From positions 32,001-96,000 of the IMG/VR virus record IMGVR_UViG_3300045988_147517: a stretch of 64,000 bases of DNA. The stretch is one strand, 5' to 3'. Within the stretch, counting starts at the first letter, position 1, and each line of letters begins with the position of its first letter. The stretch is from a virus. The position numbers and the translations under genes are program-made. Shown one piece after another: positions 15,084-56,550 of the stretch. Under the pieces are notes generated by a model. That model did not search any database. It saw only the letters and a program-made list of their open reading frames with translations, and was not told the origin of the DNA.

Positions 15084-15163
15084 ATTTAGGCACATTTTCA
15101 CGCTTCTCGCTCAAGCACTACAATAAGTACAGTATCAACGAGCTATCCCCGTCCTAACAGCGG
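15084..15163 (-). ncRNA. TnpB-associated guide-scaffold RNA (omega-RNA-like), orphan copy A
   Basis: Minus-sense CCGCUGUUAGGACGGGGAUAGCUCGUUGAU-[ACUGUA CUUAU UGUAGU]-GCUUGAGCGAGAAGCGUGAAAAUGUGCCUAAAU. It is homologous to the RNA directly downstream of tnpB and has no ORF. Confidence 0.7.
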
Positions 15164-15300
15164 TTCTTGCTAACGATTTGTCAATCTTTGATTAACTCCT
15201 TTTCTCTCTGGGAATCAAATTCAAAATCCTCATTCGATTCTGGTATTTCATAAGGGTCATGGTCATAGCACCACATACAACCATCACATTCCTTTGTTCC

Positions 15301-17676: not shown

Positions 17677-17707
17677 TTTGTTCTCCTTTTTTATATAAAT
17701 TTTAAAA

Positions 17708-17785
17708 ATTAAATATAATTCATGTTAACTTTAAACAATGGTAAAAGTCAATCAAATTTAAATACATTCTAATTTAAACACAGAT
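17708..17785 (-). repeat. two degenerate copies of the CRISPR-like repeat downstream of scaffold copy B
   Basis: Plus-strand 17756-17785 ATTTAAATACATTCTAATTTAAACACAGAT and 17708-17737 ATTAAATATAATTCATGTTAACTTTAAACA, compared with the consensus ATTTAAATACATCTCATGTTAAACACAAAC. Confidence 0.5.
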
Positions 17786-17850
17786 TCAACGCTTCTCGCT
17801 CAATAACCTTACGGTTAAGTATCAACGAGCTAACCCCGGTTTAACCTCGG
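17772..17850 (-). ncRNA. TnpB-associated guide-scaffold RNA, orphan copy B, with its own promoter
   Basis: Minus-sense CCGAGGUUAAACCGGGGUUAGCUCGUUGAUAC-[UUAACC GUAA GGUUA]-UUGAGCGAGAAGCGUUGAAUCUGUGUUUAAAU. It starts about 7 nt after a perfect -10 box. Confidence 0.7.
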
Positions 17851-17857
17851 TTCTTTG

Positions 17858-17886
17858 ATTATAACATATAATTTTTGTTATGTCAA
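17858..17886 (-). promoter_or_regulatory. consensus promoter driving scaffold copy B
   Basis: TTGACA (17886-17881), exactly 17 nt, TATAAT (17863-17858). No ORF lies between it and the RNA. Confidence 0.7.
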
Positions 17887-17895
17887 ATTTATTTT

Positions 17896-18237
17896 TTAAT
17901 CATCCCATTCAATATCTGGGTATGGATTTCTATTAATTTCGTCTATATAGAATTCCCCGTAAAACCAATCTTTTAAATTGATATATATTTCATTTATTTC
18001 TTGCAATGTTTTTTCGATAAATTCATTTATTTCTTCGTCATCATATTTATTATCAGCAAAATACTTTTCACTATTAAATATTTTACAAAATGGATAAGAA
18101 TGCACTTCAACTTTTACATGAATGCACCAACCACAATAGCGATAATTTATAATTATATCAAATGGCAAGTCGTATAAATCGTATAATTCTTTACATTCTT
18201 TTGTTTTATTTTCATAATAATATTTTTTAGTAATCAT
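17896..18237 (-). CDS. hypothetical protein
   Basis: 113-aa ORF with AGGGGT RBS, located between the repeat array and scaffold copy B. Confidence 0.5.
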   Translation of the reverse strand: MITKKYYYENKTKECKELYDLYDLPFDIIINYRYCGWCIHVKVEVHSYPFCKIFNSEKYFADNKYDDEEINEFIEKTLQEINEIYINLKDWFYGEFYIDEINRNPYPDIEWDD

Positions 18238-18264
18238 TTTACCCCTACTTTATTTAAACATTCC

Positions 18265-18492
18265 ATTCAAATACATCTCGTGTTAAACACAAACTTTGGC
18301 ACTTGATGTCTATTTTTTCTGGAAATTAAAATTTAAATGCATCTCATGTTAAACACAAACCCCGGCATCTATTACCGGAGACAAACAAATAGTAAGATTT
18401 AAATACATCTCATGTTAAACACAAACCCTAATCGTCTATATCTGCGCCTTTTAGAATATCTAATTTAAATACATCTCATGTTAAACACAAAC
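18265..18492 (-). CRISPR. CRISPR-like mini-array: 4 x 30-nt repeats, 3 x 36-nt spacers
   Basis: Repeats are at 18265-18294 (2 mismatches), 18331-18360 (1 mismatch), 18397-18426 and 18463-18492, with an exact 66-nt period. In crRNA sense the repeat is GTTTGTGTTTAACATGAGATGTATTTAAAT, containing the hairpin ACAU-GAG-AUGU. The spacers are unique. Confidence 0.75.
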
Positions 18493-18513
18493 TATAGTAT
18501 TTATCTCATTCTC

Positions 18514-18591
18514 ATTACGCTAACATTTGATGCTTCTCACTCGATAGTCTAATGACTAAGCATAAATGAGCTATCCCCGGTTTAACCTCGG
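18514..18591 (-). ncRNA. guide-scaffold RNA (omega-RNA / tracr-like), copy C, immediately 3' of tnpB
   Basis: It begins 11 nt after the tnpB stop: CCGAGGUUAAACCGGGGAUAGCUCAUUUAUGCU-[UAGUC AUUA GACUA]-UCGAGUGAGAAGCAUCAAAUGUUAGCGUAAU. The 3' boundary is uncertain. Confidence 0.7.
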
Positions 18592-18602
18592 TTGGTGGTA
18601 AG

Positions 18603-19751
18603 TTAATTTACCAGCCGCTTTCCTTCTTTTAGAATATTTTTAGCGGCATTTATATCCCTATCCTCTTTGTAGCCACAAACCGGGCATACAAAGGTTTTTT
18701 CGGATAAAATATTCTCTTCTATTACATGTTCACACTTATGGCACGTCTTTGAGCTTGGGAAAAATGTATTTACTTGTACATATTTATGGCCATATTCTTC
18801 TGCTTTATACGCTAACATTTGGCAGAAATTAAAGTACCCTATATCGGTAATAGCAGAATTAAAATTTTTCTTTGTTCTATTTAAAAACCCTTCTTTCTCT
18901 TTATTCTGTTTCATCATTTCTTGCAATTTAAGTTTCTCAACCGCAATAATTTTATTATCTCTCGCAATCTTCCTACTCAAATTATGTGCGAAATATGCTC
19001 TTTGTCTAGCAATTTTCTGATGAACTTTCGCTACTTTAATACGTTGTTTTTCGTAATTTTTACTACCACGTTGACAATGACTTAATTTGCGTTGCTCTCT
19101 GGCTAAACGTTCTTTGCTTTTCTTATAGTAGTTAGGATAATCTGGAATACTTCCTTTATTATCCACAAAGTAATCTCGTGATGAAAAATCAAGCCCGATG
19201 GATTGGGATTTCCCTTTCTTCTGTTTCATTTTAAATTCAATGCAGAAGGCAATATAGTATTCCCCTGATGGTGTCCTAGAAAGTGTTGCATCACATATTT
19301 TTGCATCATCTGGAATTGGCCTATCAACAATCATTTTGACGGTTGTTGACAATTTTGGAATTTTAACTCTATTACCTTCAATACGCAACCCATTACCGCC
19401 AACTGTATTTCTCGTTTTAAAGCTATCCCTACATCTACCACGCTTCTTAAATTTAGGAAATCCGGGCTTTTCCCCATTTTTTAATCTTCTAAAAAAGTTT
19501 TTATACGCCTGTTCTAAATCCCGCTGAACAAAATTTAAGGCATGTGCATCCACTTCTTTTAACCAAGTATTATCTGCTTTATATGAAGCGTAGCTCGTCT
19601 TTAATGACTTCCCCGTCTCTTCATAATGCTTTATTTTGTCAGCAAGCATAGCATTCCAAATCCATCTGCAAGCGCCAAATGTTTTATTTAAATATTCTCT
19701 CTGTTCTTTATTTGGGTAGATACGATATTTATAACCTCTAACTACTAACAT
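18603..19751 (-). CDS. tnpB: TnpB-like RNA-guided RuvC nuclease (IS200/IS605 OrfB family), stand-alone
   Basis: Contains YKYRIYPNKEQ, RuvC-I IGLDFS, RuvC-II IAVEKL, the zinc ribbon CHKCEH..CPVCGY and RuvC-III DRDINAAKNI. The protein is 382 aa. Confidence 0.9.
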   Translation of the reverse strand: MLVVRGYKYRIYPNKEQREYLNKTFGACRWIWNAMLADKIKHYEETGKSLKTSYASYKADNTWLKEVDAHALNFVQRDLEQAYKNFFRRLKNGEKPGFPKFKKRGRCRDSFKTRNTVGGNGLRIEGNRVKIPKLSTTVKMIVDRPIPDDAKICDATLSRTPSGEYYIAFCIEFKMKQKKGKSQSIGLDFSSRDYFVDNKGSIPDYPNYYKKSKERLAREQRKLSHCQRGSKNYEKQRIKVAKVHQKIARQRAYFAHNLSRKIARDNKIIAVEKLKLQEMMKQNKEKEGFLNRTKKNFNSAITDIGYFNFCQMLAYKAEEYGHKYVQVNTFFPSSKTCHKCEHVIEENILSEKTFVCPVCGYKEDRDINAAKNILKEGKRLVN

Positions 19752-19779
19752 TTTCTTACCTCATCAACTTTATGTCTAT

Positions 19780-19808
19780 ATTATATCATGTTGGCGCTTA
19801 CTTGTCAA
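19780..19808 (-). promoter_or_regulatory. consensus promoter of tnpB
   Basis: TTGACA (19808-19803), 17 nt (containing GCGCCAA, as in other promoters in this window), TATAAT (19785-19780). Confidence 0.7.
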
Positions 19809-20262: not shown

Positions 20263-20291
20263 ATTATAATACATTGTTTGCATGTTGTCAA
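20263..20291 (-). promoter_or_regulatory. consensus promoter
   Basis: TTGACA (20291-20286), 17 nt, TATAAT (20268-20263). Confidence 0.65.
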
Positions 20292-21065: not shown

Positions 21066-21725
21066 TTATTTTTCCTTTTTATACCATGGTTTAAACCGTT
21101 TAATTCTGTCCAGAAGAGTGGCAGAATGTCCATTAAAAACAATCGCTCTGTCATCCACTACTGCAATGGCGGCTGGTTTACTATCCGTAATATCATCGAC
21201 CTTAATATCATTCTTATCTAGCCATTCTTTGATAGCCTCTCTTCCAATTTTCCATCGACATCTACTACTCTGAATAACTACACTATATCCCTTTTCACGC
21301 ATATCGTCAATAGCTTTTTTAATTCCTTTTGTTGGTGGGTCAAGGATGGTATCAATTCCATTGTAACCTGATTTGTAACTATTAACAACGCCATCAAAAT
21401 CAAGAACAATTGTTTGTTTGAATGGGGTTTCTGATTCTTTAACAAGTTCTAACATTGGCGCTGTAAAACTAAAAGGATAAAGTTCATTTTCACCTTCAAA
21501 TAAAATATAAATATTTTGAATATGTTTATCTAATAATGAATTATATATTATACCTATATCCATTACTACACCAACACATTCACATTTATCTCTCATTTCT
21601 AAAACGAAATAATCCCCTTCAATTTCTAAGTCATTTTCAGAATCAACTTCGTCACAAATATCTAATAATTCTTTAAGTGGACGAACCTTTACTGTATCGC
21701 CCACCCTGTATTTAATCCTACTCAT
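21066..21725 (-). CDS. HAD-superfamily phosphatase-like protein
   Basis: The C-terminal half has IVLDFDGVVNS (the DxDxV/T motif I), VVIQSSR and VVDDR. The start overlaps the upstream stop. Confidence 0.5.
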   Translation of the reverse strand: MSRIKYRVGDTVKVRPLKELLDICDEVDSENDLEIEGDYFVLEMRDKCECVGVVMDIGIIYNSLLDKHIQNIYILFEGENELYPFSFTAPMLELVKESETPFKQTIVLDFDGVVNSYKSGYNGIDTILDPPTKGIKKAIDDMREKGYSVVIQSSRCRWKIGREAIKEWLDKNDIKVDDITDSKPAAIAVVDDRAIVFNGHSATLLDRIKRFKPWYKKEK

Positions 21726-22035
21726 TTTCAACAAACATTTCTGGTGAAAAATCAAACATCCAATTTAAACCGCCATCTTCTGGTTTAAAATCAGGGTCTA
21801 AAAATCGCGCATCATGTAATAAGATTTTATTCGGCCCATTAACAGATGCAACATATCCTCTCATACCACATAATTTCTGCATATCTGGTGTAAAATAATT
21901 TGCAACCTTTCGATTTGATTTTGCGTTTGGATAAGTATATCCACACAAAAATGTACCATTTTCATCTGGCGCACCATACTCATTCAACAATTCTTCATAC
22001 GTTTTAATTCTTACAATATCGCCTTTTTTTACCAT
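21718..22035 (-). CDS. hypothetical protein
   Basis: Start moved to MVKKGD behind GGAGGG. Confidence 0.5.
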   Translation of the reverse strand: MVKKGDIVRIKTYEELLNEYGAPDENGTFLCGYTYPNAKSNRKVANYFTPDMQKLCGMRGYVASVNGPNKILLHDARFLDPDFKPEDGGLNWMFDFSPEMFVENE

Positions 22036-28406: not shown

Positions 28407-28625
28407 TTAATCCCTCATAAGCCTTTTAATATCTCTTACATTCAAACTCAATACTATATTCACATTATCAGGCGGATTCATATTATTTACAAACCGCTTC
28501 AAACACCCAGTCGAACAAAAATAATGGCCGTGCGACCGCACCCCGTTATTGGAGATTTCTTGAATCGTCAACTGAATCATATTACAGGTACAACCCGCTT
28601 CTCCACTACAAAACTCACACTTCAT
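28407..28625 (-). CDS. small Cys-rich protein
   Basis: Start placed at ATG 28625, 9 nt after AAGGAG. Confidence 0.5.
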   Translation of the reverse strand: MKCEFCSGEAGCTCNMIQLTIQEISNNGVRSHGHYFCSTGCLKRFVNNMNPPDNVNIVLSLNVRDIKRLMRD

Positions 28626-28637
28626 AATATTCACTCC

Positions 28638-28727
28638 TTAGTTAATTAAAATACCGCCAACATATTCAATATATTCGTATGCCGCCTTTGGCGATTCCAC
28701 AACATCATTTTTGCCAATCGTTTCCCA
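28638..28727 (-). pseudogene. orphaned ancestral 3' end of the upstream gene (diverged duplicate of 28826-28915)
   Basis: Ungapped hand alignment gives 68 of 90 nt identical to the real 3' end. It translates as WETIGKNDVVESPKAAYEYIEYVGGILIN*, against WDAIAKDDVIESPEKAYEYIETVGGILIN*. It retains the original stop, RBS and junction to the next gene. Confidence 0.75.
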
Positions 28728-28802
28728 ATTTAGGTGTACTAATGTACTTCTCACTCGATAGCATAGCTAAGCATAAATGAGCTAACCCCGTCCTAACAGC
28801 GG
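28728..28802 (-). ncRNA. TnpB-associated guide-scaffold RNA, orphan copy D
   Basis: Minus-sense CCGCUGUUAGGACGGGGUUAGCUCAUUUAUGCU-[UAGC UAU GCUA]-UCGAGUGAGAAGUACAUUAGUACACCUAAAU. It is followed directly by the orphaned gene fragment. Confidence 0.7.
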
Positions 28803-28825
28803 TTATTGTTGGTGCTATATAATTA

Positions 28826-29248
28826 TTAATTGATTAATATGCCGCCAACAGTTTCAATATACTCATAGGCTTTTTCAGGCGATTCTATAACATCATCTTT
28901 AGCAATCGCATCCCAAGAATATTTACCCGCATATCGGGTAAAAGCCTTTTGAAAATCAACACCTTTTTTATTTTTATACAATACAATTTCATCCCACATT
29001 CTTTGACTACTCACCACAATATTATCATGCGCCATGTTTACTATTGTATTCGGCCCCATAACTCTATACCCTTTAACGTCATGCGGGATTGTCCCAATGC
29101 CATGGCAATAATGACAAACACTTTGTAAAAGGGGGTATCCCGCTTTTAAACCACGAGCATACCCCTTACCACCACATTTCGGGCAACATACTTCATCTAC
29201 GCGAAACGTTCCTTCTTTAATATAATATACTTCGTCTCCTAGTTCCAA
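28826..29248 (-). CDS. DnaJ-type zinc-finger (CxxCxGxG) protein
   Basis: Contains CPKCGGKGY and CHYCHGIGT. Probable TTG start behind AAGGAGGG. Confidence 0.55.
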   Translation of the reverse strand: MELGDEVYYIKEGTFRVDEVCCPKCGGKGYARGLKAGYPLLQSVCHYCHGIGTIPHDVKGYRVMGPNTIVNMAHDNIVVSSQRMWDEIVLYKNKKGVDFQKAFTRYAGKYSWDAIAKDDVIESPEKAYEYIETVGGILIN

Positions 29249-49625: not shown

Positions 49626-49731
49626 GAGATGATTTAAGCGTTCTACGTAGAGATGTGAAAAAAAAAGATTCTAAAATACACTTTCTTCGAAACCGTATTT
49701 TCTCGTTTCATTTTTACACAAATTTGGCAAG

Positions 49732-49812
49732 TTATCCACAGGGATGTTGATAAGTCTAAAGTTATCCACAGAAGTTATCCACAGGCTGTTGATAACTAGG
49801 CACTTATCCACA
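49732..49812 (+). promoter_or_regulatory. DnaA-box cluster (putative origin or DnaA-binding region)
   Basis: Four perfect TTATCCACA boxes at 49732, 49762, 49775 and 49804, plus two inverted TGTTGATAA boxes at 49746 and 49788. Confidence 0.7.
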
Positions 49813-49822
49813 GGTAGCGCAA

Positions 49823-49850
49823 TAAAAAAAAAGGCGTTAAGCCTTTTTTC
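49823..49850. terminator. bidirectional terminator
   Basis: A-run, AAGGC-GTTAA-GCCTT, T-run. It overlaps the stop of the helicase-like gene. Confidence 0.65.
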
Positions 49851-51186
49851 GAGATTTATTAAAGTAGCGGGATTTTTGGTAGGGCACGTAGGCGATTTCT
49901 TCATCGTTGAGCCATTGAGTGAAAAGCGTTCGCATACGCAGGGATGGAATGTAGAGGTAAATTTCTTCATTATTTCTTATGGCGCTTCTCCATACCCATT
50001 GAACCATATCAGCCAGCGCGAATTTATCTTGGTCGACGGCAATATTTCTAATTGAAAAAAGTTGTTTAATAAAAGGGTTCATGTAGCGGTTTACCATGTA
50101 GGCGCAATGTGTGCGGTTTCCATATTCGTTTGTCGCTTTAGCATTGAGTGGAACAAAAGCCCTTCTACTAATGCGCGCTGGCTTCACTTGCTTATTAAAA
50201 GATTTAAAGGTGGTATACATTCGTTGTTTTGGTGGCGCGCTTCTCAGAAAATTAAAGATACATCGGCTTACATCCTCAAGTTCCTCTGGATGTGAGGCAT
50301 ACCAATTATTACTAAGCGTACTGGAGAACTCCTGATTATTATTTGCTACATAAGGTCGACCAATTTCATTAAGGCTATCACTCTGGCAAATGTGGATAAG
50401 CGGTTTTACATTTTTCTTCCATTCTCTCTCATAGTCTTGGTTAATGGTTGGAACAAAACAATATTGTCCATTTTGGCGCTCTGTGTGATAATATTCATAT
50501 GTTATATCATAGAAGCGATAATAGTATGCCTGCATTTGATGTTCAAACATGTAGGTAAGGATAAAAACGTCATTAAAAATATCCTCTTCGAAAACCTGTA
50601 CGGGGAACGACCAAAATAAGGCACTATCATTAATATAGTAGAGCAGTCCATTATCGGCCAAATGTTTCATGTGTTGGTAGCGTGATAAATCAGCCCATTC
50701 TTCTTTTGACCAATTCACTTGAAAATCTGGGTCGATAGATACATATCCTTTGCGAATAAAAGATGCCATATCCTTTATTGTATGAAGTTGCCTTTCTCTT
50801 TCGGTGAAGTTGGATTCGGAATACTTACATAAGTCATATTCATTAATAACGTTTATGACCTCGTCTAGAAATAAGATATAATTCCCACCTCTTAAGATAT
50901 CGAGCAACTCTTTGTCTACATAAGAAAAGAGCGCATGTGTACAGACGATATTTTCTCCTTTTGCAAGTAGCGCTTTTAGGTGCCTTCCCTTGGTTCCAAA
51001 TTCTTCCTCAGATGGTTGAACAAAATTCTTTGATTCACATTCTTTTATAACCCTATCACATTCGGTTAGGAATGGTGTTACAAACATAATATTGGTATCA
51101 TTCCCTAACATATTAATATGATGAATGGCGGCACTTGTTTTGCCGCTACCCATCGGAGAGTCAACAACTTTAATTCTTCTTTTCAT
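49837..51186 (-). CDS. P-loop NTPase, helicase-like (DEAD/DEAH-type N-domain)
   Basis: Walker A SPMGSGKTS and Walker B-like ILFLDEV, with AAGGAG RBS. Confidence 0.55.
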   Translation of the reverse strand: MKRRIKVVDSPMGSGKTSAAIHHINMLGNDTNIMFVTPFLTECDRVIKECESKNFVQPSEEEFGTKGRHLKALLAKGENIVCTHALFSYVDKELLDILRGGNYILFLDEVINVINEYDLCKYSESNFTERERQLHTIKDMASFIRKGYVSIDPDFQVNWSKEEWADLSRYQHMKHLADNGLLYYINDSALFWSFPVQVFEEDIFNDVFILTYMFEHQMQAYYYRFYDITYEYYHTERQNGQYCFVPTINQDYEREWKKNVKPLIHICQSDSLNEIGRPYVANNNQEFSSTLSNNWYASHPEELEDVSRCIFNFLRSAPPKQRMYTTFKSFNKQVKPARISRRAFVPLNAKATNEYGNRTHCAYMVNRYMNPFIKQLFSIRNIAVDQDKFALADMVQWVWRSAIRNNEEIYLYIPSLRMRTLFTQWLNDEEIAYVPYQKSRYFNKSRKKA

Positions 51187-51929: not shown

Positions 51930-54900
51930 ATGAAGAATCGACAATTTTATATAGTAAAACTAAATAGTTCTGATTTAAAGTATTTCAAATATACTTTAGA
52001 GGGGGATTTTGATATTTTTAAAAAGCGCGACCAGATAGCCGCGGTGGCAGATAGTCAGACATTAAGGTTGATTAGAGAACTTACAAATAAAGATGTAGAC
52101 TTGGAAGAGATTGAGAAGTTATACAAAAAAAGAGATTGGCTCAAAAAACAGGAGAGCACACAGGCCGCTTCAAATGAAATTGCTTTTTTGCAACGTAAGA
52201 TTAATAACGCTATGTTTATTCCAGAATATGTCACAGTCACCATGAGTGGAAATAAACAATATGAGTATTTGTTCGAAAAAGGATTTGAGCTTATTATAGA
52301 TGGTAGGCGCATTCATTATAAGCGATTGTCATGTTCGGCAGGGCAGGCTCGTGTTTCTACTGTTGTATTCTGTGATAGTAATATTATTGATGAATTGGAG
52401 CGTCGATTAAACAACGGACGTGATATGAACTTTAAGATAGCGCCATCTAAATTCAATGCATACTTTGGATTATATACTTCCGCAACTAAAGTAGTTAGCG
52501 AGCCTAACTTTTGTGTTGTGCCAGACTATGAAAATAATTTGGATGTAGAGGTAAATTATGTAACTGAAACGGATTATGATTCGGACGATTTAATTGATAC
52601 GCGAACCGTCAACTTAGGGTTTAACCGAACTGATGGGATGGGGCTAATAAATTATGAACGCGCCTCTAAATGGGCAGAAGAGTTAGGGCTAGATTATGTT
52701 CCGGCCCAATTTTGCATACGACAATCATTTATTAAGGGAATGTTGTGCACCTTTCCCATTCAAGAGTTTTGTGAGCTTGTTAATTATGGTAATTATATCA
52801 CAAAAGATATTTATGGCGCTGAAATAGATTTGAGGGACTATGATGTTATTTTAACGGAGAGCCAATTTAAATTGTGGGGTGCTTATCCAAATCTTGATTA
52901 TTACAAAGAATGTTGCCATAAAAATAATCTTAAATGGGGTGTAGCTATTTATACCCCTAAGCATGATAAAGATATTATCAAGATGAACTATCAATTTCTA
53001 CAAACATTAGATTTATCAGACGAAGATATTGAAAATTTATGCTCAATGTTTGTTAATTGGATTCAGGGTGTAACTTGTGACAACTTAGGATACACGCTCC
53101 TCTATTTAATTGGAGAGGGTAAAACTGAAGAAGAAGTTCGGGCCTACATGCGTAGCCCGGATAACTATTGGATTAAATCTTTAATTATGGAGCCGGAGTT
53201 AATTAAAGATAGGTATATCAAACAGAAGATATATCGCCTAATTAAAAAGCGCATTCAAGACGGTTGCCTAGGAGAGATTATTTTAAATGGCAACTTTCAG
53301 GTACTCGTAAGCGACCCATTTGGATTTATGCAACATGTATGCGGGTTAGAGCCAACTGGGTTACTTGGCGCTGATGAGTATTACTCTAACTATTGGAATG
53401 AGCGGGATGTAAAAGTGGTGGATGGTATGCGTTCCCCCTTGACATATCGCTCCGAACATGTTAAAATGAAGTTAGTGAGAAACAGCCGTATAGATTATTG
53501 GTATCGTTATATGTATACGGGCGTTGTTCTTAATTACCATGGACACGATGTAATGTGTTTTGGTGGCGCGGATTTTGATTATGATATTTTAGCCACTACT
53601 GATTGTCCAGAGGTGGTTAATGGTATATATCCAAATGAGTTACCTGTCTATTATGAGCCACCCAAACCAGCGAAGATAGTGCCTACAAAAGAGGATTTGT
53701 TTAAATCAGACACATTCAGTTTTGGTTCTATCATTGGTAGCATTACAAATAAAGGTTCTAGCGGATATGCATTACTTTCCGACATTGAATATATGTATGG
53801 GAAGAATAGTATAGAGTATGTTACTACGCTAAATAGATTAAAAATGTCTTGCAAGTTACAGAGCGCGCAAATTGATTAATGTTGGTCACTTCATAGGGAA
53901 ACCTATGTCGAAACGTGGTGAACACTCAGAGAGTGGGTATACATATATTGTATGCTATCGGGGAAAGCTAAAGCCATAAGGTATGCCAATCCCGAGCCGA
54001 ACACCTATTGGAGGTGGAGGTGTAACGACTATCCGCAAGGAGTAGCGCCATAGCGATATGGTGGCGAAGTGCCACGCCCCTAACGTAAAGCCGAGGGTGA
54101 AGATATAGTCTAGTCCCCTAACAAATATCGGGAAACCGAGGGTATGAACGAAAGCGAAAATAGGAAGAGAAGTAAAAGGAATTCCTAAAATATGGGTCAA
54201 ACGCCAGAAAATAGAAGATGACGACGATGAACAAACGATTAAATATAAGGAGCGGATGAATTATTTATGTCTAGACAGGCATCCTTATTTTTTTATATAT
54301 CGTTATGCTGATACCAGAAAGAAATATCGCAAGCACATTGACACTTATCAACATTGGTGCAAGACTTCATTTAGATTGTCTCTAGAGGAATTATTTAAGG
54401 TAGAAAATAAGACACAGCAACAAAAGGATTTTTTAGCTGGATATTTCCGTTATATGCCTGTTATTGATAGCAATAGTACGATGAATCGTATTTGCCATTA
54501 TATTGAAGGGTTGAATATGAATGTACGTAGCCACCTTAAAGTAAAAGAAGGGCACGACATGCATAAATTATTTATGCCTGATAATATTGAATGGAATGAA
54601 GAGCGCTACAATAATGTGGTAGAAGCCTATAAGCGTTATTGCAAGGAGTGCACAAAAATGAATTCTCTTGGCGCTTCTAATTTTGATTTTGAGACAACGA
54701 AGGATTATGATTTTTACGCTTCTATGTTTATAGGAATGTTGTATTCCTATGTCAATGAGGTATGCAGTAATGTGTACGAAGCCATTACATATTTGGCGCA
54801 TTATATGTATGTGGAAAAAGATAGCGCCAATAAGGAAATGCTATGGCAAACATATGGGTATGAAATATATAGTATGATTAAGGAAAGAAATAGCGGTTAC

Positions 54901-56455: not shown

Positions 56456-56472
56456 TTTTATAATCAAACCAA

Positions 56473-56550
56473 CCGTTGTTAGGACGGGGATAGCTCGTTG
56501 ACACTTAACCATAAGGTTATTGAGCGAGAAGTACGTTAGTATGCCTAAAT
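56473..56550 (+). ncRNA. TnpB-associated guide-scaffold RNA, orphan copy E (plus strand)
   Basis: CCGUUGUUAGGACGGGGAUAGCUCGUUGACAC-[UUAACC AUAA GGUUA]-UUGAGCGAGAAGUACGUUAGUAUGCCUAAAU. It starts 17 nt after the tRNA-Thr CCA end, in the same orientation as local transcription. Confidence 0.7.

What the first reader, a model, noticed from the sequence alone, without database searches (positions are those of the whole stretch)
17708..19808. Domesticated phage TnpB-like nuclease with a downstream scaffold RNA and a multi-spacer CRISPR-like array
ORF 18603-19751 (minus) is a complete TnpB. It has YRIYPNKEQ, RuvC-I IGLDFS, RuvC-II IAVEKL, a CHKC..CPVC zinc ribbon and RuvC-III DRDINAAKNI, all intact.

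It is not in a recognisable IS. There is no TnpA nearby, and it sits behind a perfect TTGACA-N17-TATAAT promoter (19780-19808) of the same class as the neighbouring phage genes.

Eleven nt after its stop a ~78-nt structured RNA begins (18591-18514). About 21 nt further on there are four 30-nt direct repeats with an exact 66-nt period (18463, 18397, 18331, 18265). In crRNA sense the repeat reads GTTTGTGTTTAACATGAGATGTATTTAAAT. Three unique 36-nt spacers separate them. Repeat decay increases away from tnpB (0, 0, 1 and 2 mismatches), as at a CRISPR trailer end. No cas1 or cas2 is in the window.

Canonical TnpB carries one guide fixed by its transposon end. A TnpB-sized effector with a fixed scaffold plus a spacer array, inside a virus and under viral transcriptional control, looks like a TnpB-to-Cas12 intermediate. 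It may serve as a phage weapon against hosts, competitors or mobile elements.
Basis: partly seen in the sequence, partly recalled or inferred. Interest (0 to 1): 0.95.

Follow-up and report, generated by a model that had tools for sequence, protein, structure and literature searches.

The report
Phage TnpB with borrowed CRISPR arrays
A roughly 119-kb gut phage carries one transposase-less TnpB nuclease, at least five guide-RNA scaffold genes for it, and two small CRISPR arrays of the bacterial type I-B kind joined to two of those scaffolds; TnpB may therefore be using CRISPR spacers as guides, probably against rival phages.

Summary
There is an intact 382-aa TnpB (18603-19751, minus) behind a perfect promoter. 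A structured RNA starts 9 nt after its stop. Four 30-nt repeats follow at a 66-nt period, separated by three unique 36-nt spacers.

- The "scaffold" is the 5' module of a TnpB omega-RNA. It has lost the terminal hairpin (stem 4) that TnpA binds.
- The repeats and the "linker" are not new. They belong to the type I-B repeat and leader family of Clostridia and relatives.
- A pseudoknot rule, supported by covariation in seven cis omega-RNAs, predicts the partner of the array-linked scaffold loop (TTAAA). That partner, TTTAA-A-N, is exactly the last 7 nt of every repeat. Scaffolds not linked to arrays have TTAGG loops and CCTAAAT tails.
- A sibling phage carries an ATTTAAAT-tailed 20-nt guide that matches a gene in this window 20/20.

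Points against: one relative lacks tnpB but keeps both arrays, spacers are frozen within lineages, and no protospacers or TAM were found.

TnpB-CRISPR intermediates (TranC) are already described, so this is a new variant, not a new category. Confidence that TnpB uses the array is about 0.5.

The parts
19780..19808 (-). Promoter P1 (TTGACA-N17-TATAAT with an extended -10 TG). It drives tnpB, sc1 and array 1.
   Evidence: 12/12 consensus match. In relative L005 the same promoter sits directly in front of the leader and array, with no tnpB.
18603..19751 (-). tnpB, 382 aa. Intact RuvC triad (D188/E272/D366) and zinc ribbon. A clade-specific insertion of about 14 aa follows E272.
   Evidence: dN/dS is 0.056-0.13.
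18532..18593 (-). sc1: omega-RNA 5' module (tracr-like scaffold). The pseudoknot loop TTAAA is at 18585-18581.
   Evidence: 85 bits against model R1. Homologous to the omega-RNAs of IS-borne relatives. 12 pairs, 93.7% paired, 8 with compensatory changes.
18493..18531 (-). 7-nt variable tail (ATCAAAT, 18531-18525) plus a 32-nt CRISPR leader (18524-18493, ...GAGAATGAGATAAATACTATA).
   Evidence: Read. The leader resembles host I-B leaders...AAGAATGGCTATTTTACAGTG. The GTTAG(C/T) start is homologous to the internal linker of sc3 and sc5.
18265..18492 (-). CRISPR array 1. Four 30-nt repeats (18492-18463, 18426-18397, 18360-18331, 18294-18265) and three 36-nt spacers (18462-18427, 18396-18361, 18330-18295). 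Each repeat ends ...ACAT-GAG-ATGT-A-TTTAA-AT.
   Evidence: Weak Rfam CRISPR-DR3 match. The core is shared with more than 120 chromosomal arrays.
17896..18237 (-). 113-aa ORF of unknown function between the two scaffold-array units. It is conserved in relatives.
   Evidence: No Pfam or PHROG match.
17858..17886 (-). Promoter P2 (perfect TTGACA-N17-TATAAT with TG). Its -10 box ends 5 nt before the 5' end of sc2, so transcription should start at or within a few nt of the scaffold start.
   Evidence: The same arrangement is seen in L004, L005, L006 and L138-L148.
17791..17852 (-). sc2: second omega-RNA 5' module (loop TTAAA), with no tnpB of its own.
   Evidence: 80.9 bits. 78% identical to sc1.
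17707..17790 (-). Decayed array 2: linker, a degenerate repeat (17785-17756, containing TTTAAAT twice), a 19-nt spacer (17755-17737) and a terminal degenerate repeat (17736-17707). Relatives have the full form here: leader, 3 repeats and 2 spacers.
   Evidence: Relatives.
56471..56550 (+). sc3: stand-alone omega-RNA gene directly after tRNA-Thr. Loop TTAGG, 11-nt linker, tail CCTAAAT, then a unique guide.
   Evidence: 65.7 bits. Sequence. Pseudoknot test.
15084..15165 (-). sc4: stand-alone omega-RNA gene (loop TTAGG, tail CCTAAAT).
   Evidence: 59.4 bits. Sequence. An ortholog with the same guide is in L005.
28728..28804 (-). sc5: stand-alone omega-RNA gene (loop TTAGG, tail CCTAAAT). Its guide is the start of a leftover duplicate of the upstream gene's 3' end.
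   Evidence: 56.7 bits..
28567..28586 (-). 20-nt site inside the 75-aa gene (28407-28634). It matches 20/20 the ATTTAAAT-tailed guide carried by sibling phage L150.

Best explanation
This is a phage-domesticated TnpB system with several guide RNAs, and at this locus it has probably annexed a CRISPR array.

Shown:
- One intact tnpB with no TnpA partner is transcribed from phage promoter P1, together with the 5' module of an omega-RNA.
- The phage carries at least four more such modules. All lack stem 4, the hairpin TnpA binds.
- In this omega-RNA family, a five-base loop pairs with the five bases at positions -7 to -3 before the guide. Position -2 is always A.
- Every repeat of the two arrays ends in the sequence the array-linked loops require (loop TTAAA, repeat end TTTAA-A-T).

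Inferred:
- The repeat hairpin plus its last 8 nt replace the lost stem 4 and pseudoknot strand. Scaffold + leader + repeat 1 + spacer 1 would then form a complete omega-RNA in cis.
- Later repeat-spacer units could pair with the same loop within the long transcript. They could also do so after cutting by host Cas6, which would leave exactly AUUUAAAU in front of each spacer.
- TnpB would read the first 16-20 nt of a spacer and cut matching DNA next to an unknown TAM.
- The likely targets are competing related phages.

The arrays themselves came from the type I-B repeat family and may still be usable by a host Cascade as well.
For: 1. The scaffold is a true omega-RNA module. It aligns with the omega-RNAs of IS-borne TnpBs that are 41-46% identical. 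Its helices covary: 93.7% of cells paired, 8 of 12 pairs with compensatory changes, 0 of 500 shuffles as good.
2. The pseudoknot rule holds in seven cis omega-RNAs of four sequence classes: GACA/TGTC, GAACT/AGTTC, TTAGG/CCTAA and TTAAA/TTTAA. 97% of cells are paired, all 5 pairs show compensatory changes, and the slid-register controls reach only 0-57%. This matches the ISDra2 structure, including the -2A/G contact.
3. Loop type follows the 3' partner, not the scaffold body. sc3 is 90% identical to sc2, sc4 is 84% identical to L004 sc2, and sc5 is 83% identical to sc1. Even so, the stand-alone copies have TTAGG with CCTAAAT, and the array-linked copies have TTAAA with repeats ending TTTAAAT.
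4. The loop is invariant in all array-linked copies across dS of about 1.9. The scaffolds' own 7-nt tails drift (ATCAAAT, ATTAAAT, ATTGAAT, ATGATAT).
5. Natural fusions exist. L001 6965-7043 reads 5' module, 9-nt linker, the last 12 nt of a repeat, a 31-nt spacer and a degenerate repeat. Window sc2 is similar.
6. sc2 has its own perfect promoter ending 5 nt before the scaffold start.
7. tnpB is under purifying selection without any IS machinery.
8. The layout tnpB-scaffold-leader-array is kept in lineages with 72-96% identical TnpB, but with different repeats and spacers.
9. A guide with an ATTTAAAT tail in sibling phage L150 matches window 28586-28567 at 20/20. L150's own allele carries two synonymous mismatches and a changed flank.
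Against: 1. The repeats (22 of 30 nt identical to the commonest chromosomal repeats), the 34-38-nt spacers and the leader are type I-B in kind. Such arrays sit next to Cas6, Cas7 and Cas5b in bacteria. A host Cascade could use them without TnpB.
2. Relative L005 has promoter P1 directly on leader + array 1, with no tnpB or sc1. Its 72-kb contig holds only one copy of the scaffold 19-mer.
3. L148 and L149 have a frameshifted tnpB with intact arrays.
4. Spacers are identical in many samples of one lineage and change only by point mutation.
5. No protospacer was found in the phage or plasmid collections, in IMG/VR or in the window, so no TAM can be read.
6. The pseudoknot partner is a short AT-rich sequence built on the palindrome TTAA. 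The array-linked scaffolds may share one ancestor.
7. Spacers picked by a type I-B adaptation module need not lie next to a TnpB TAM.
8. There is no repeat:anti-repeat duplex beyond 5 bp.
Confidence: 0.5

Rival explanations
1. Two independent things sit side by side. The arrays are phage-borne orphan type I-B mini-arrays that use the host's Cas6, Cascade and Cas3, as in other virus-borne mini-arrays used in conflicts between viruses. TnpB with its omega-RNAs is a separate homing or competition nuclease, and its guide at this locus is simply the DNA after the scaffold, namely the leader.
For: - Type I-B repeat, leader and spacer length.
- L005 keeps P1-leader-array 1 without tnpB.
- A frameshifted tnpB occurs with intact arrays.
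- Some scaffolds have a passable tail of their own: ATTAAAT gives 4 bp, and L002 has TTTAATG after a 13-nt linker, which puts the leader in the guide position.
- Arrays in prophages of Clostridioides difficile are documented (papers listed).
Against: - It does not explain why array-linked scaffolds, and only they, carry the loop that matches the repeat end while sharing their bodies with TTAGG scaffolds.
- It does not explain why sc2 is kept, with a promoter ending 5 nt before its start, in front of array 2.
- It does not explain the scaffold-partial-repeat-spacer fusions.
- The scaffolds' own tails are not conserved.
- No type I-B cas gene is in the window, and the real host's CRISPR type was not determined.
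Confidence: 0.3
2. The arrays are frozen relics with no current function. TnpB works only through omega-RNAs with cis tails (sc3-sc5 and similar), and the match between loop and repeat end is inherited or accidental.
For: - Spacers do not turn over within lineages.
- Array 2 in the window is decayed.
- Terminal repeats are degenerate.
- No targets were found.
Against: - Arrays, their promoters and the repeat hairpin stems (ACAT/ATGT) are kept across lineages whose tnpB has dS of about 1.9. The hairpin loops and the repeat 5' halves vary.
- Arrays differ between lineages as whole cassettes, which implies exchange and retention rather than decay.
Confidence: 0.12
3. The repeats are binding sites for a protein (iterons or operators), and the 'spacers' are meaningless gaps.
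For: The period is regular and the repeats lie close to promoters.
Against: - The repeat is a member of a CRISPR repeat family with the Cas6-type hairpin.
- Spacers differ completely between lineages, and repeat number varies from 2 to 5.
- Decay follows the trailer-end pattern.
Confidence: 0.02

Closest known systems
TranC (transposon-CRISPR intermediates; Jin et al. 2025 as cited in PMC13565253 and bioRxiv 10.64898/2026.03.27.714800), including the phage-borne TnpB-sized CauTranC9
   Same: - A TnpB-like, TnpB-sized RuvC nuclease with a CRISPR array immediately downstream and no adaptation genes.
- The guide RNA is thought to be an omega-RNA split into a tracr-like part and a crRNA-like part.
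- One described member lies in a phage genome and targets phages.
   Different: - The repeats here are 30 nt and belong to a class 1 (type I-B) family. Reported TranC repeats are 32-38 nt and of unknown subtype.
- Predicted pairing between scaffold and repeat is only the 5-bp pseudoknot, with no second repeat:anti-repeat stem.
- The same nuclease also has at least three ordinary single-guide omega-RNA genes.
- Sequence relation to LaTranC is weak (E about 1e-17 over the C-terminal half), whereas ISDra2 TnpB aligns at 1e-58 over the full length.
- Activity is untested.
Canonical IS200/IS605 TnpB with omega-RNA (ISDra2; PMC10097598, PMC8612924). The homing function is described in PMC10690162.
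   Same: - Protein family, catalytic residues and the position of the omega-RNA downstream of the gene.
- Pseudoknot geometry, including the -2A/G contact.
- Guides that match the allele lacking the element (sc5).
   Different: - No TnpA, no left-end hairpin (only 11 nt between the upstream junction and the ATG) and no right-end or stem-4 hairpin.
- Driven by a phage promoter.
- One gene serves at least five guide RNA genes.
- Two scaffolds run into CRISPR arrays.
- The TAM-reading residues of ISDra2 are not conserved.
Virus-borne orphan CRISPR mini-arrays that use the host's Cas proteins (review PMC11656645; C. difficile prophage arrays PMC4173771 and PMC4556805; Medvedeva et al. 2019 recalled from my own knowledge)
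   Same: - Short arrays of 2-5 repeats in a virus, without cas genes.
- The repeats are of a host CRISPR type.
- The likely targets are related viruses.
   Different: Here each array is fused to a TnpB guide scaffold whose pseudoknot loop matches the repeat end, and a TnpB gene sits directly upstream.
Free-standing homing endonuclease genes of phages (intronless homing; reviewed in PMC13565253)
   Same: - The nuclease targets the rival phage's allele.
- The phage's own allele is protected by recoding (sc5 duplication; the L150 guide against the window allele).
   Different: Recognition is by RNA guides, so one protein can cover many sites.

Membership tests
TnpB (IS200/IS605-type RNA-guided nuclease, protein family) | HTH/WED-REC, split RuvC with a D-E-D triad, and a zinc-ribbon TNB domain. 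| tested here: met
   Three Pfam domains above cut-off. NCBIfam guided_TnpB at 302 bits against a cut-off of 100. Full-length alignment to ISDra2 TnpB. D188, E272, D366 and the four Cys are invariant.
TnpB (IS200/IS605-type RNA-guided nuclease, protein family) | A cognate omega-RNA encoded at or after the 3' end of the gene, with a pseudoknot next to the guide. | tested here: met
   The scaffold is homologous to the omega-RNAs of IS-borne relatives and covaries. The pseudoknot rule is supported. Stem 4 is missing.
IS200/IS605 insertion sequence (mobile element) | A Y1 TnpA, or ends that TnpA can use: subterminal hairpins at the left and right ends. | tested here: not met
   No TnpA in the window. 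Only 11 nt separate the upstream junction from the ATG. The terminal hairpin present in relatives L009, L010, L135 and L136 is absent.
Type V CRISPR-Cas / TranC | A TnpB- or Cas12-like effector with a CRISPR array immediately downstream, kept in relatives. | tested here: met
   The layout is kept in lineages with 96% and 72% identical TnpB. All are syntenic phages, so this counts as one evolutionary event.
Type V CRISPR-Cas / TranC | Repeat pairs with a tracr-like RNA, or itself forms the guide-adjacent pseudoknot. | tested here: inconclusive
   The repeat end TTTAA-A-T fits the scaffold loop TTAAA exactly, at the register defined by homology. That is only 5 AT pairs, and there is no second duplex.
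Type V CRISPR-Cas / TranC | Spacer-guided nucleic-acid targeting by the effector. | not testable with these tools
   Needs RNA co-purification and interference assays. No protospacers were found.
Type I-B CRISPR array (orphan, phage-borne) | Repeat of the type I-B family: 30 nt, a small hairpin, an 8-nt 3' handle sequence and spacers of about 36 nt. | tested here: met
   The 22-nt core is identical to more than 120 chromosomal arrays with a 65-66-nt period. These lie next to Cas6, Cas7 and Cas5b (TIGR02592, 176 bits against a cut-off of 97). The Rfam CRISPR-DR3 match is below threshold.
Type I-B CRISPR array (orphan, phage-borne) | The host of this phage has a type I-B system with a compatible repeat. 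| not tested
   The host is unknown. One relative's TnpB carries a Holdemanella porci RefSeq label.
Iterons / protein-binding repeats | Same repeats and same intervening sequence in all relatives. | tested here: not met
   Spacers and repeat variants differ between lineages.

The most novel reading that the evidence does not exclude
A phage TnpB has captured class 1 (type I-B) CRISPR arrays as a supply of guides. It lost the omega-RNA stem 4 and retuned the pseudoknot loop (TTAGG to TTAAA) to the 8-nt type I-B handle. Repeat-spacer units, in cis or after host Cas6 cutting, then plug into a tracr-like scaffold. This would be a natural class 1 / class 2 hybrid. It would also be a living example of a type V system arising by array capture rather than by duplication of omega-RNA segments. 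The same nuclease would also run a set of single-guide omega-RNAs against rival phages.
Probability: 0.4. Interest if true: 0.9.

Novelty: new variant of a known kind. Interest (0 to 1): 0.7.

Why it matters
How TnpB became Cas12 is an open question with two proposed routes. One is that arrays grew from duplicated omega-RNA pieces. The other is that a TnpB element landed next to an existing array (PMC10691335).

This locus is a concrete candidate for the second route, and it makes a sharp, testable prediction. A two-base change in the scaffold loop, matched to the repeat end, should decide whether spacers can be used.

It also shows a TnpB kept by a virus without any transposase. That TnpB is served by several guide genes aimed at alleles of sibling phages, in effect an RNA-programmed homing or competition nuclease.

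If active, a 382-aa nuclease with a 62-nt scaffold that accepts short handle-plus-guide RNAs would interest genome-editing groups.

Tried and rejected
1. Classic IS insertion with TAM TTGAT.
- The allele without tnpB in L005 joins ...AAAGTTGAT directly to TTAGTAT..., which at first looked like an empty target site.
- I dropped this as the main reading for four reasons. The GTTAG(T/C)A start of the 'leader' is homologous to the internal linker of sc3 and sc5. Relatives L001 and L002 have no TTGAT upstream. The TAM-reading residues of ISDra2 are not conserved. A deletion through TTGA(A)T microhomology explains the junction equally well.

2. Anti-repeat in the leader. GATAAATAC in the leader can pair with GTATTTA in the repeat over 7 bp, and the MFE fold uses this pairing. 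The fold is no better than shuffles (z -1.2), and the idea adds nothing beyond the pseudoknot rule.

3. Spacer targets. There is no hit in 50,697 phage records, 72,556 plasmids, IMG/VR (five seed patterns that tolerate every sixth base), the window or any fetched locus. The only partial hits are 16/18 matches: W1 in L002, and L141b in the window.

4. More relatives. The scaffold 19-mer and the TnpB clade are absent from GTDB representative genomes and from JGI metagenomes. The window is not in the GenBank phage set.

5. Guide aimed at host CRISPR leaders. The phage leader matches the consensus host leader at only 12 of 22 positions, which is too few.

6. Neighbouring small ORFs. There is no Pfam or PHROG function for the 113-, 184-, 143- and 138-aa proteins.


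Full report
THE OBSERVATION

The minus strand between 19808 and 18265 reads as follows.
- A perfect TTGACA-N17-TATAAT promoter with an extended -10 TG lies at 19808-19780.
- A 382-aa ORF lies at 19751-18603.
- Nine nt after its stop comes a conserved structured segment, 18593-18532.
- A 39-nt stretch follows.
- Then come four 30-nt repeats with an exact 66-nt period, at 18492-18463, 18426-18397, 18360-18331 and 18294-18265. Three unique 36-nt spacers separate them.
- The 22-nt repeat core occurs four times, with 0, 0, 1 and 2 mismatches. None is expected by chance.

The protein is a standard TnpB.
- It has three Pfam domains and matches NCBIfam guided_TnpB.
- It aligns over its full length to ISDra2 TnpB at E about 1e-58.
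- D188, E272, D366 and the zinc-ribbon cysteines are invariant.

The window comes from a large phage.
- It encodes ribonucleotide reductase, DnaB, primase, PcfJ and tRNAs.
- The same protein sits on contigs of about 119 kb in many gut metagenome samples.
- tblastn at E<=1 finds no Y1 TnpA, no type I-B Cas5/6/7/8 and no second tnpB in the window.

WHAT THE "SCAFFOLD" IS

IS-borne TnpBs that are 41-46% identical still have a Y1 tnpA (L009, L136). Downstream of the gene they carry four elements in this order:
- a shared 5' module, AACCG..GGGG.TAGC...GAGAAGC;
- a GC-rich terminal hairpin;
- 8-10 nt of tail;
- the flank.

The phage segment aligns to that 5' module. On eight sequences, 12 base pairs are 93.7% paired, 8 pairs show compensatory changes and 0 of 500 shuffles do as well. 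It is therefore an omega-RNA scaffold. It lacks the terminal hairpin, which is stem 4 of ISDra2, the TnpA-binding right-end hairpin. It also lacks any room for a left end.

tnpB is nevertheless under strong purifying selection. dN/dS is 0.056 against the 96% relative (dS 0.32), and about 0.10 against the 72% relatives (dS about 1.8).

WHAT THE ARRAY IS

The plus strand of the repeat gives a sub-threshold match to Rfam CRISPR-DR3. The 22-nt 3' core, TTAACATGAGATGTATTTAAAT, is found in more than 120 chromosomal loci of Clostridium and other Bacillota. There it forms arrays of up to 121 repeats with a 65-66-nt period. Two such loci carry Cas6 next to the array, and one carries Cas6, a 557-aa protein, Cas7 and Cas5b (type I-B).

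Host leaders end ...TATAAT-N8-AAGAATGGCTATTTTACAGTG. The phage "linker" ends ...GAGAATG(G/A)GATAAATACT.., so it is a related CRISPR leader. The array was therefore not built from omega-RNA pieces. It belongs to the type I-B repeat family. That makes "phage mini-array using the host's Cascade" the natural rival explanation.

RELATIVES

- Contig L004 (TnpB 96%) has the same layout: tnpB, scaffold, leader, array, 113-aa ORF, promoter, second scaffold, leader, second array. Its repeats and spacers are different.
- L002/L003 and L141 (TnpB 72-73%) share one scaffold but have two different arrays.
- Within a lineage the arrays are frozen. L138-L140, L142-L145, L147 and L148 come from different samples and carry the same spacers as L004, with only point mutations.
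- L005 (IMG/VR, 72 kb) has promoter P1 joined directly to a leader and array 1, with no tnpB and no first scaffold. It keeps the second scaffold and array.
- L148 and L149 have tnpB split by a frameshift (212 + 188 aa) while both arrays are intact.

So the arrays are real CRISPR-like cassettes that get swapped between lineages. They can also persist without an intact tnpB.

THE SECOND UNIT AND THREE MORE SCAFFOLDS

A second perfect promoter (17886-17858) ends 5 nt before a second scaffold (17852-17791, 78% identical to the first). In the window this runs into a decayed array: a degenerate repeat, a 19-nt spacer and a terminal repeat.

A covariance model of the scaffold finds three more copies in the window and none in about 100 host CRISPR loci:
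- sc3, 56471-56532 (+), just after tRNA-Thr;
- sc4, 15165-15102 (-);
- sc5, 28804-28746 (-).

Each of the three reads: 5' module, 11-nt linker, CCTAAAT, unique sequence. One tnpB therefore serves at least five scaffold genes.

THE PSEUDOKNOT RULE

In ISDra2, the bases at -5 to -3 before the guide pair with a loop near the 5' end, and -2A contacts a G. I transferred this register by homology: AACC, four bases, then the loop.

The loop and the tail are complementary in every cis omega-RNA:
- GACA/TGTC in L135;
- GAACT/AGTTC in L012 and a second L011 copy;
- TTAGG/CCTAA in sc3-sc5;
- TTAAA/TTTAA in L001 6965-7043.

The counts are 97% paired and all five pairs with compensatory changes. No shuffle (0 of 500) does as well, and slid registers reach 0-57%. 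Position -2 is A and the facing base is G in all of them.

All array-linked scaffolds have the loop TTAAA. These are sc1 in three lineages, sc2 in two, and the start of L001 sc1. The partner this loop requires is TTTAA-A-N, which is exactly the last 7 nt of every repeat (...GTATTTAAAT or ...AAAC).

Three further points bear on this.
- The scaffolds' own 7-nt tails vary (ATCAAAT, ATTAAAT, ATTGAAT, GTTGAAT, ATGATAT) and give 2-4 of 5 pairs.
- Scaffold bodies are shared between the two loop classes: sc3 is 90% identical to sc2, sc4 is 84% identical to L004 sc2, and sc5 is 83% identical to sc1. So loop type tracks the 3' partner, not ancestry of the body.
- The repeat's small hairpin followed by A-TTTAA-AT mimics stem 4 plus the pseudoknot strand plus two bases. 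The distance from module to tail (about 62 nt) is within the 9-58 nt seen in cis omega-RNAs.

L001 6965-7043 and window sc2 are natural fusions: module, short linker, end of a repeat, spacer, degenerate repeat.

This is the main evidence that repeat-spacer units can complete the omega-RNA. It is inference, not proof. The pairing is five AT pairs built on the TTAA palindrome.

WHAT THE SYSTEM IS AIMED AT

sc5 sits between a 140-aa gene ending ...SWDAIAKDDVIESPEKAYEYIETVGGILIN* and a leftover copy...NWETIGKNDVVESPKAAYEYIEYVGGILIN*. The guide position starts at the W of the leftover copy. This is the geometry of a homing cassette that brings its own recoded gene end.

In the sibling phage L150, the sc5 ortholog is followed by a second 3' segment, GAGTAGGAAGT-GCGTTAGCAT-ATTTAAAT. 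This segment has no 5' module of its own. Next come 20 nt, TGTAATATGATTCAGTTGAC. These match window 28586-28567 at 20/20, inside the 75-aa gene. L150's own copy of that gene has two synonymous mismatches and a different 5' flank.

So guides with the repeat-type tail do target sibling-phage alleles. At least one such guide has no scaffold in cis.

For the CRISPR spacers I found only weak traces.
- The first 18 nt of spacer 1 match L002 position 693 at 16/18. That site is in the ortholog of window ORF 21066-21755, and the encoded peptide is similar.
- An L141 spacer matches window 1692 at 16/18.
- Nothing was found in the phage or plasmid collections or in IMG/VR.

No TAM can be given. The ISDra2 TAM-reading residues are not conserved.

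COMPARISON WITH WHAT IS KNOWN

- TnpB-sized nucleases with CRISPR arrays are already described as TranC, including one in a phage.
- TnpB genes next to viral arrays have been noted before.
- Virus-borne mini-arrays and TnpB homing are also known.

What I did not find described is a TnpB scaffold fused to class 1-type arrays with a matched pseudoknot loop. I also did not find a phage with one TnpB and a family of stem-4-less guide genes aimed at sibling phages.

VERDICT

- Observation: confirmed.
- Interpretation: partly supported.
- Classification: a new variant of a known kind.
- About 0.5 that TnpB uses the array spacers.
- About 0.3 that the arrays serve only a host Cascade.
- The rest on relics or other readings.

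Noticed in passing
window 56471-56550 (+), 15084-15165 (-), 28728-28804 (-): Three stand-alone omega-RNA genes (sc3-sc5). They have loop TTAGG, an 11-nt linker and tail CCTAAAT, and no tnpB next to them. sc3 starts 15 nt after tRNA-Thr.
   Followed up: partly
window 28638-29248 (-): The 140-aa gene's last 30 or so codons are duplicated downstream of sc5 as a diverged leftover copy. The sc5 guide position begins at that copy, as in a homing cassette that carries a recoded gene end.
   Followed up: partly
L150 1733-1781; window 28567-28586: A sibling phage carries a scaffold-less segment ending ATTTAAAT, followed by a 20-nt guide identical to a site in the window's 75-aa gene. Its own allele has two synonymous changes.
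   Followed up: yes
L148 3001-4150, L149: tnpB is split by a frameshift into 212- and 188-aa ORFs in several samples, while both scaffolds and both arrays are intact.
   Followed up: partly
L141 (123-kb contig); protein P0135: A TnpB of the 72% clade is identical to RefSeq WP_418583517.1, labelled Holdemanella porci. This hints that the host is an Erysipelotrichaceae gut bacterium rather than a Clostridium.
   Followed up: no
window 49729-49813: A tandem 42-nt repeat contains four copies of AAGTTATCCACAG (TTATCCACA is the DnaA-box consensus). It lies just downstream of a 449-aa ORF (49837-51186) with no Pfam match, at the point where gene orientation flips. It may be a replication origin.
   Followed up: no
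window 51930-53879 (+): A 649-aa ORF has a weak match to the eukaryotic-type RNA-dependent RNA polymerase family PF05183 (E 5.6e-8).
   Followed up: no
window 20263-20291, 19780-19808, 17858-17886 (-): Three promoters with a perfect 12/12 consensus lie within 2.5 kb on the same strand. Two have an extended -10 TG.
   Followed up: no
L004 1586-1619 and orthologs: The first spacer of the L004-type array, AGGGTTTTTTATTTTTATAAAAAAAAGGAAATAA, is low-complexity and only 34 nt. That is unlike a typical protospacer.
   Followed up: no
L001 705-3680; L150 1-1040: Relatives encode an integrase, a Gad2-family protein and a SprT-like protein near this region.
   Followed up: no
window 18238-18264 (-): After the last repeat there is one more TTTAAAT motif, directly in front of the ribosome-binding site and start of the 113-aa ORF.
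   Followed up: no
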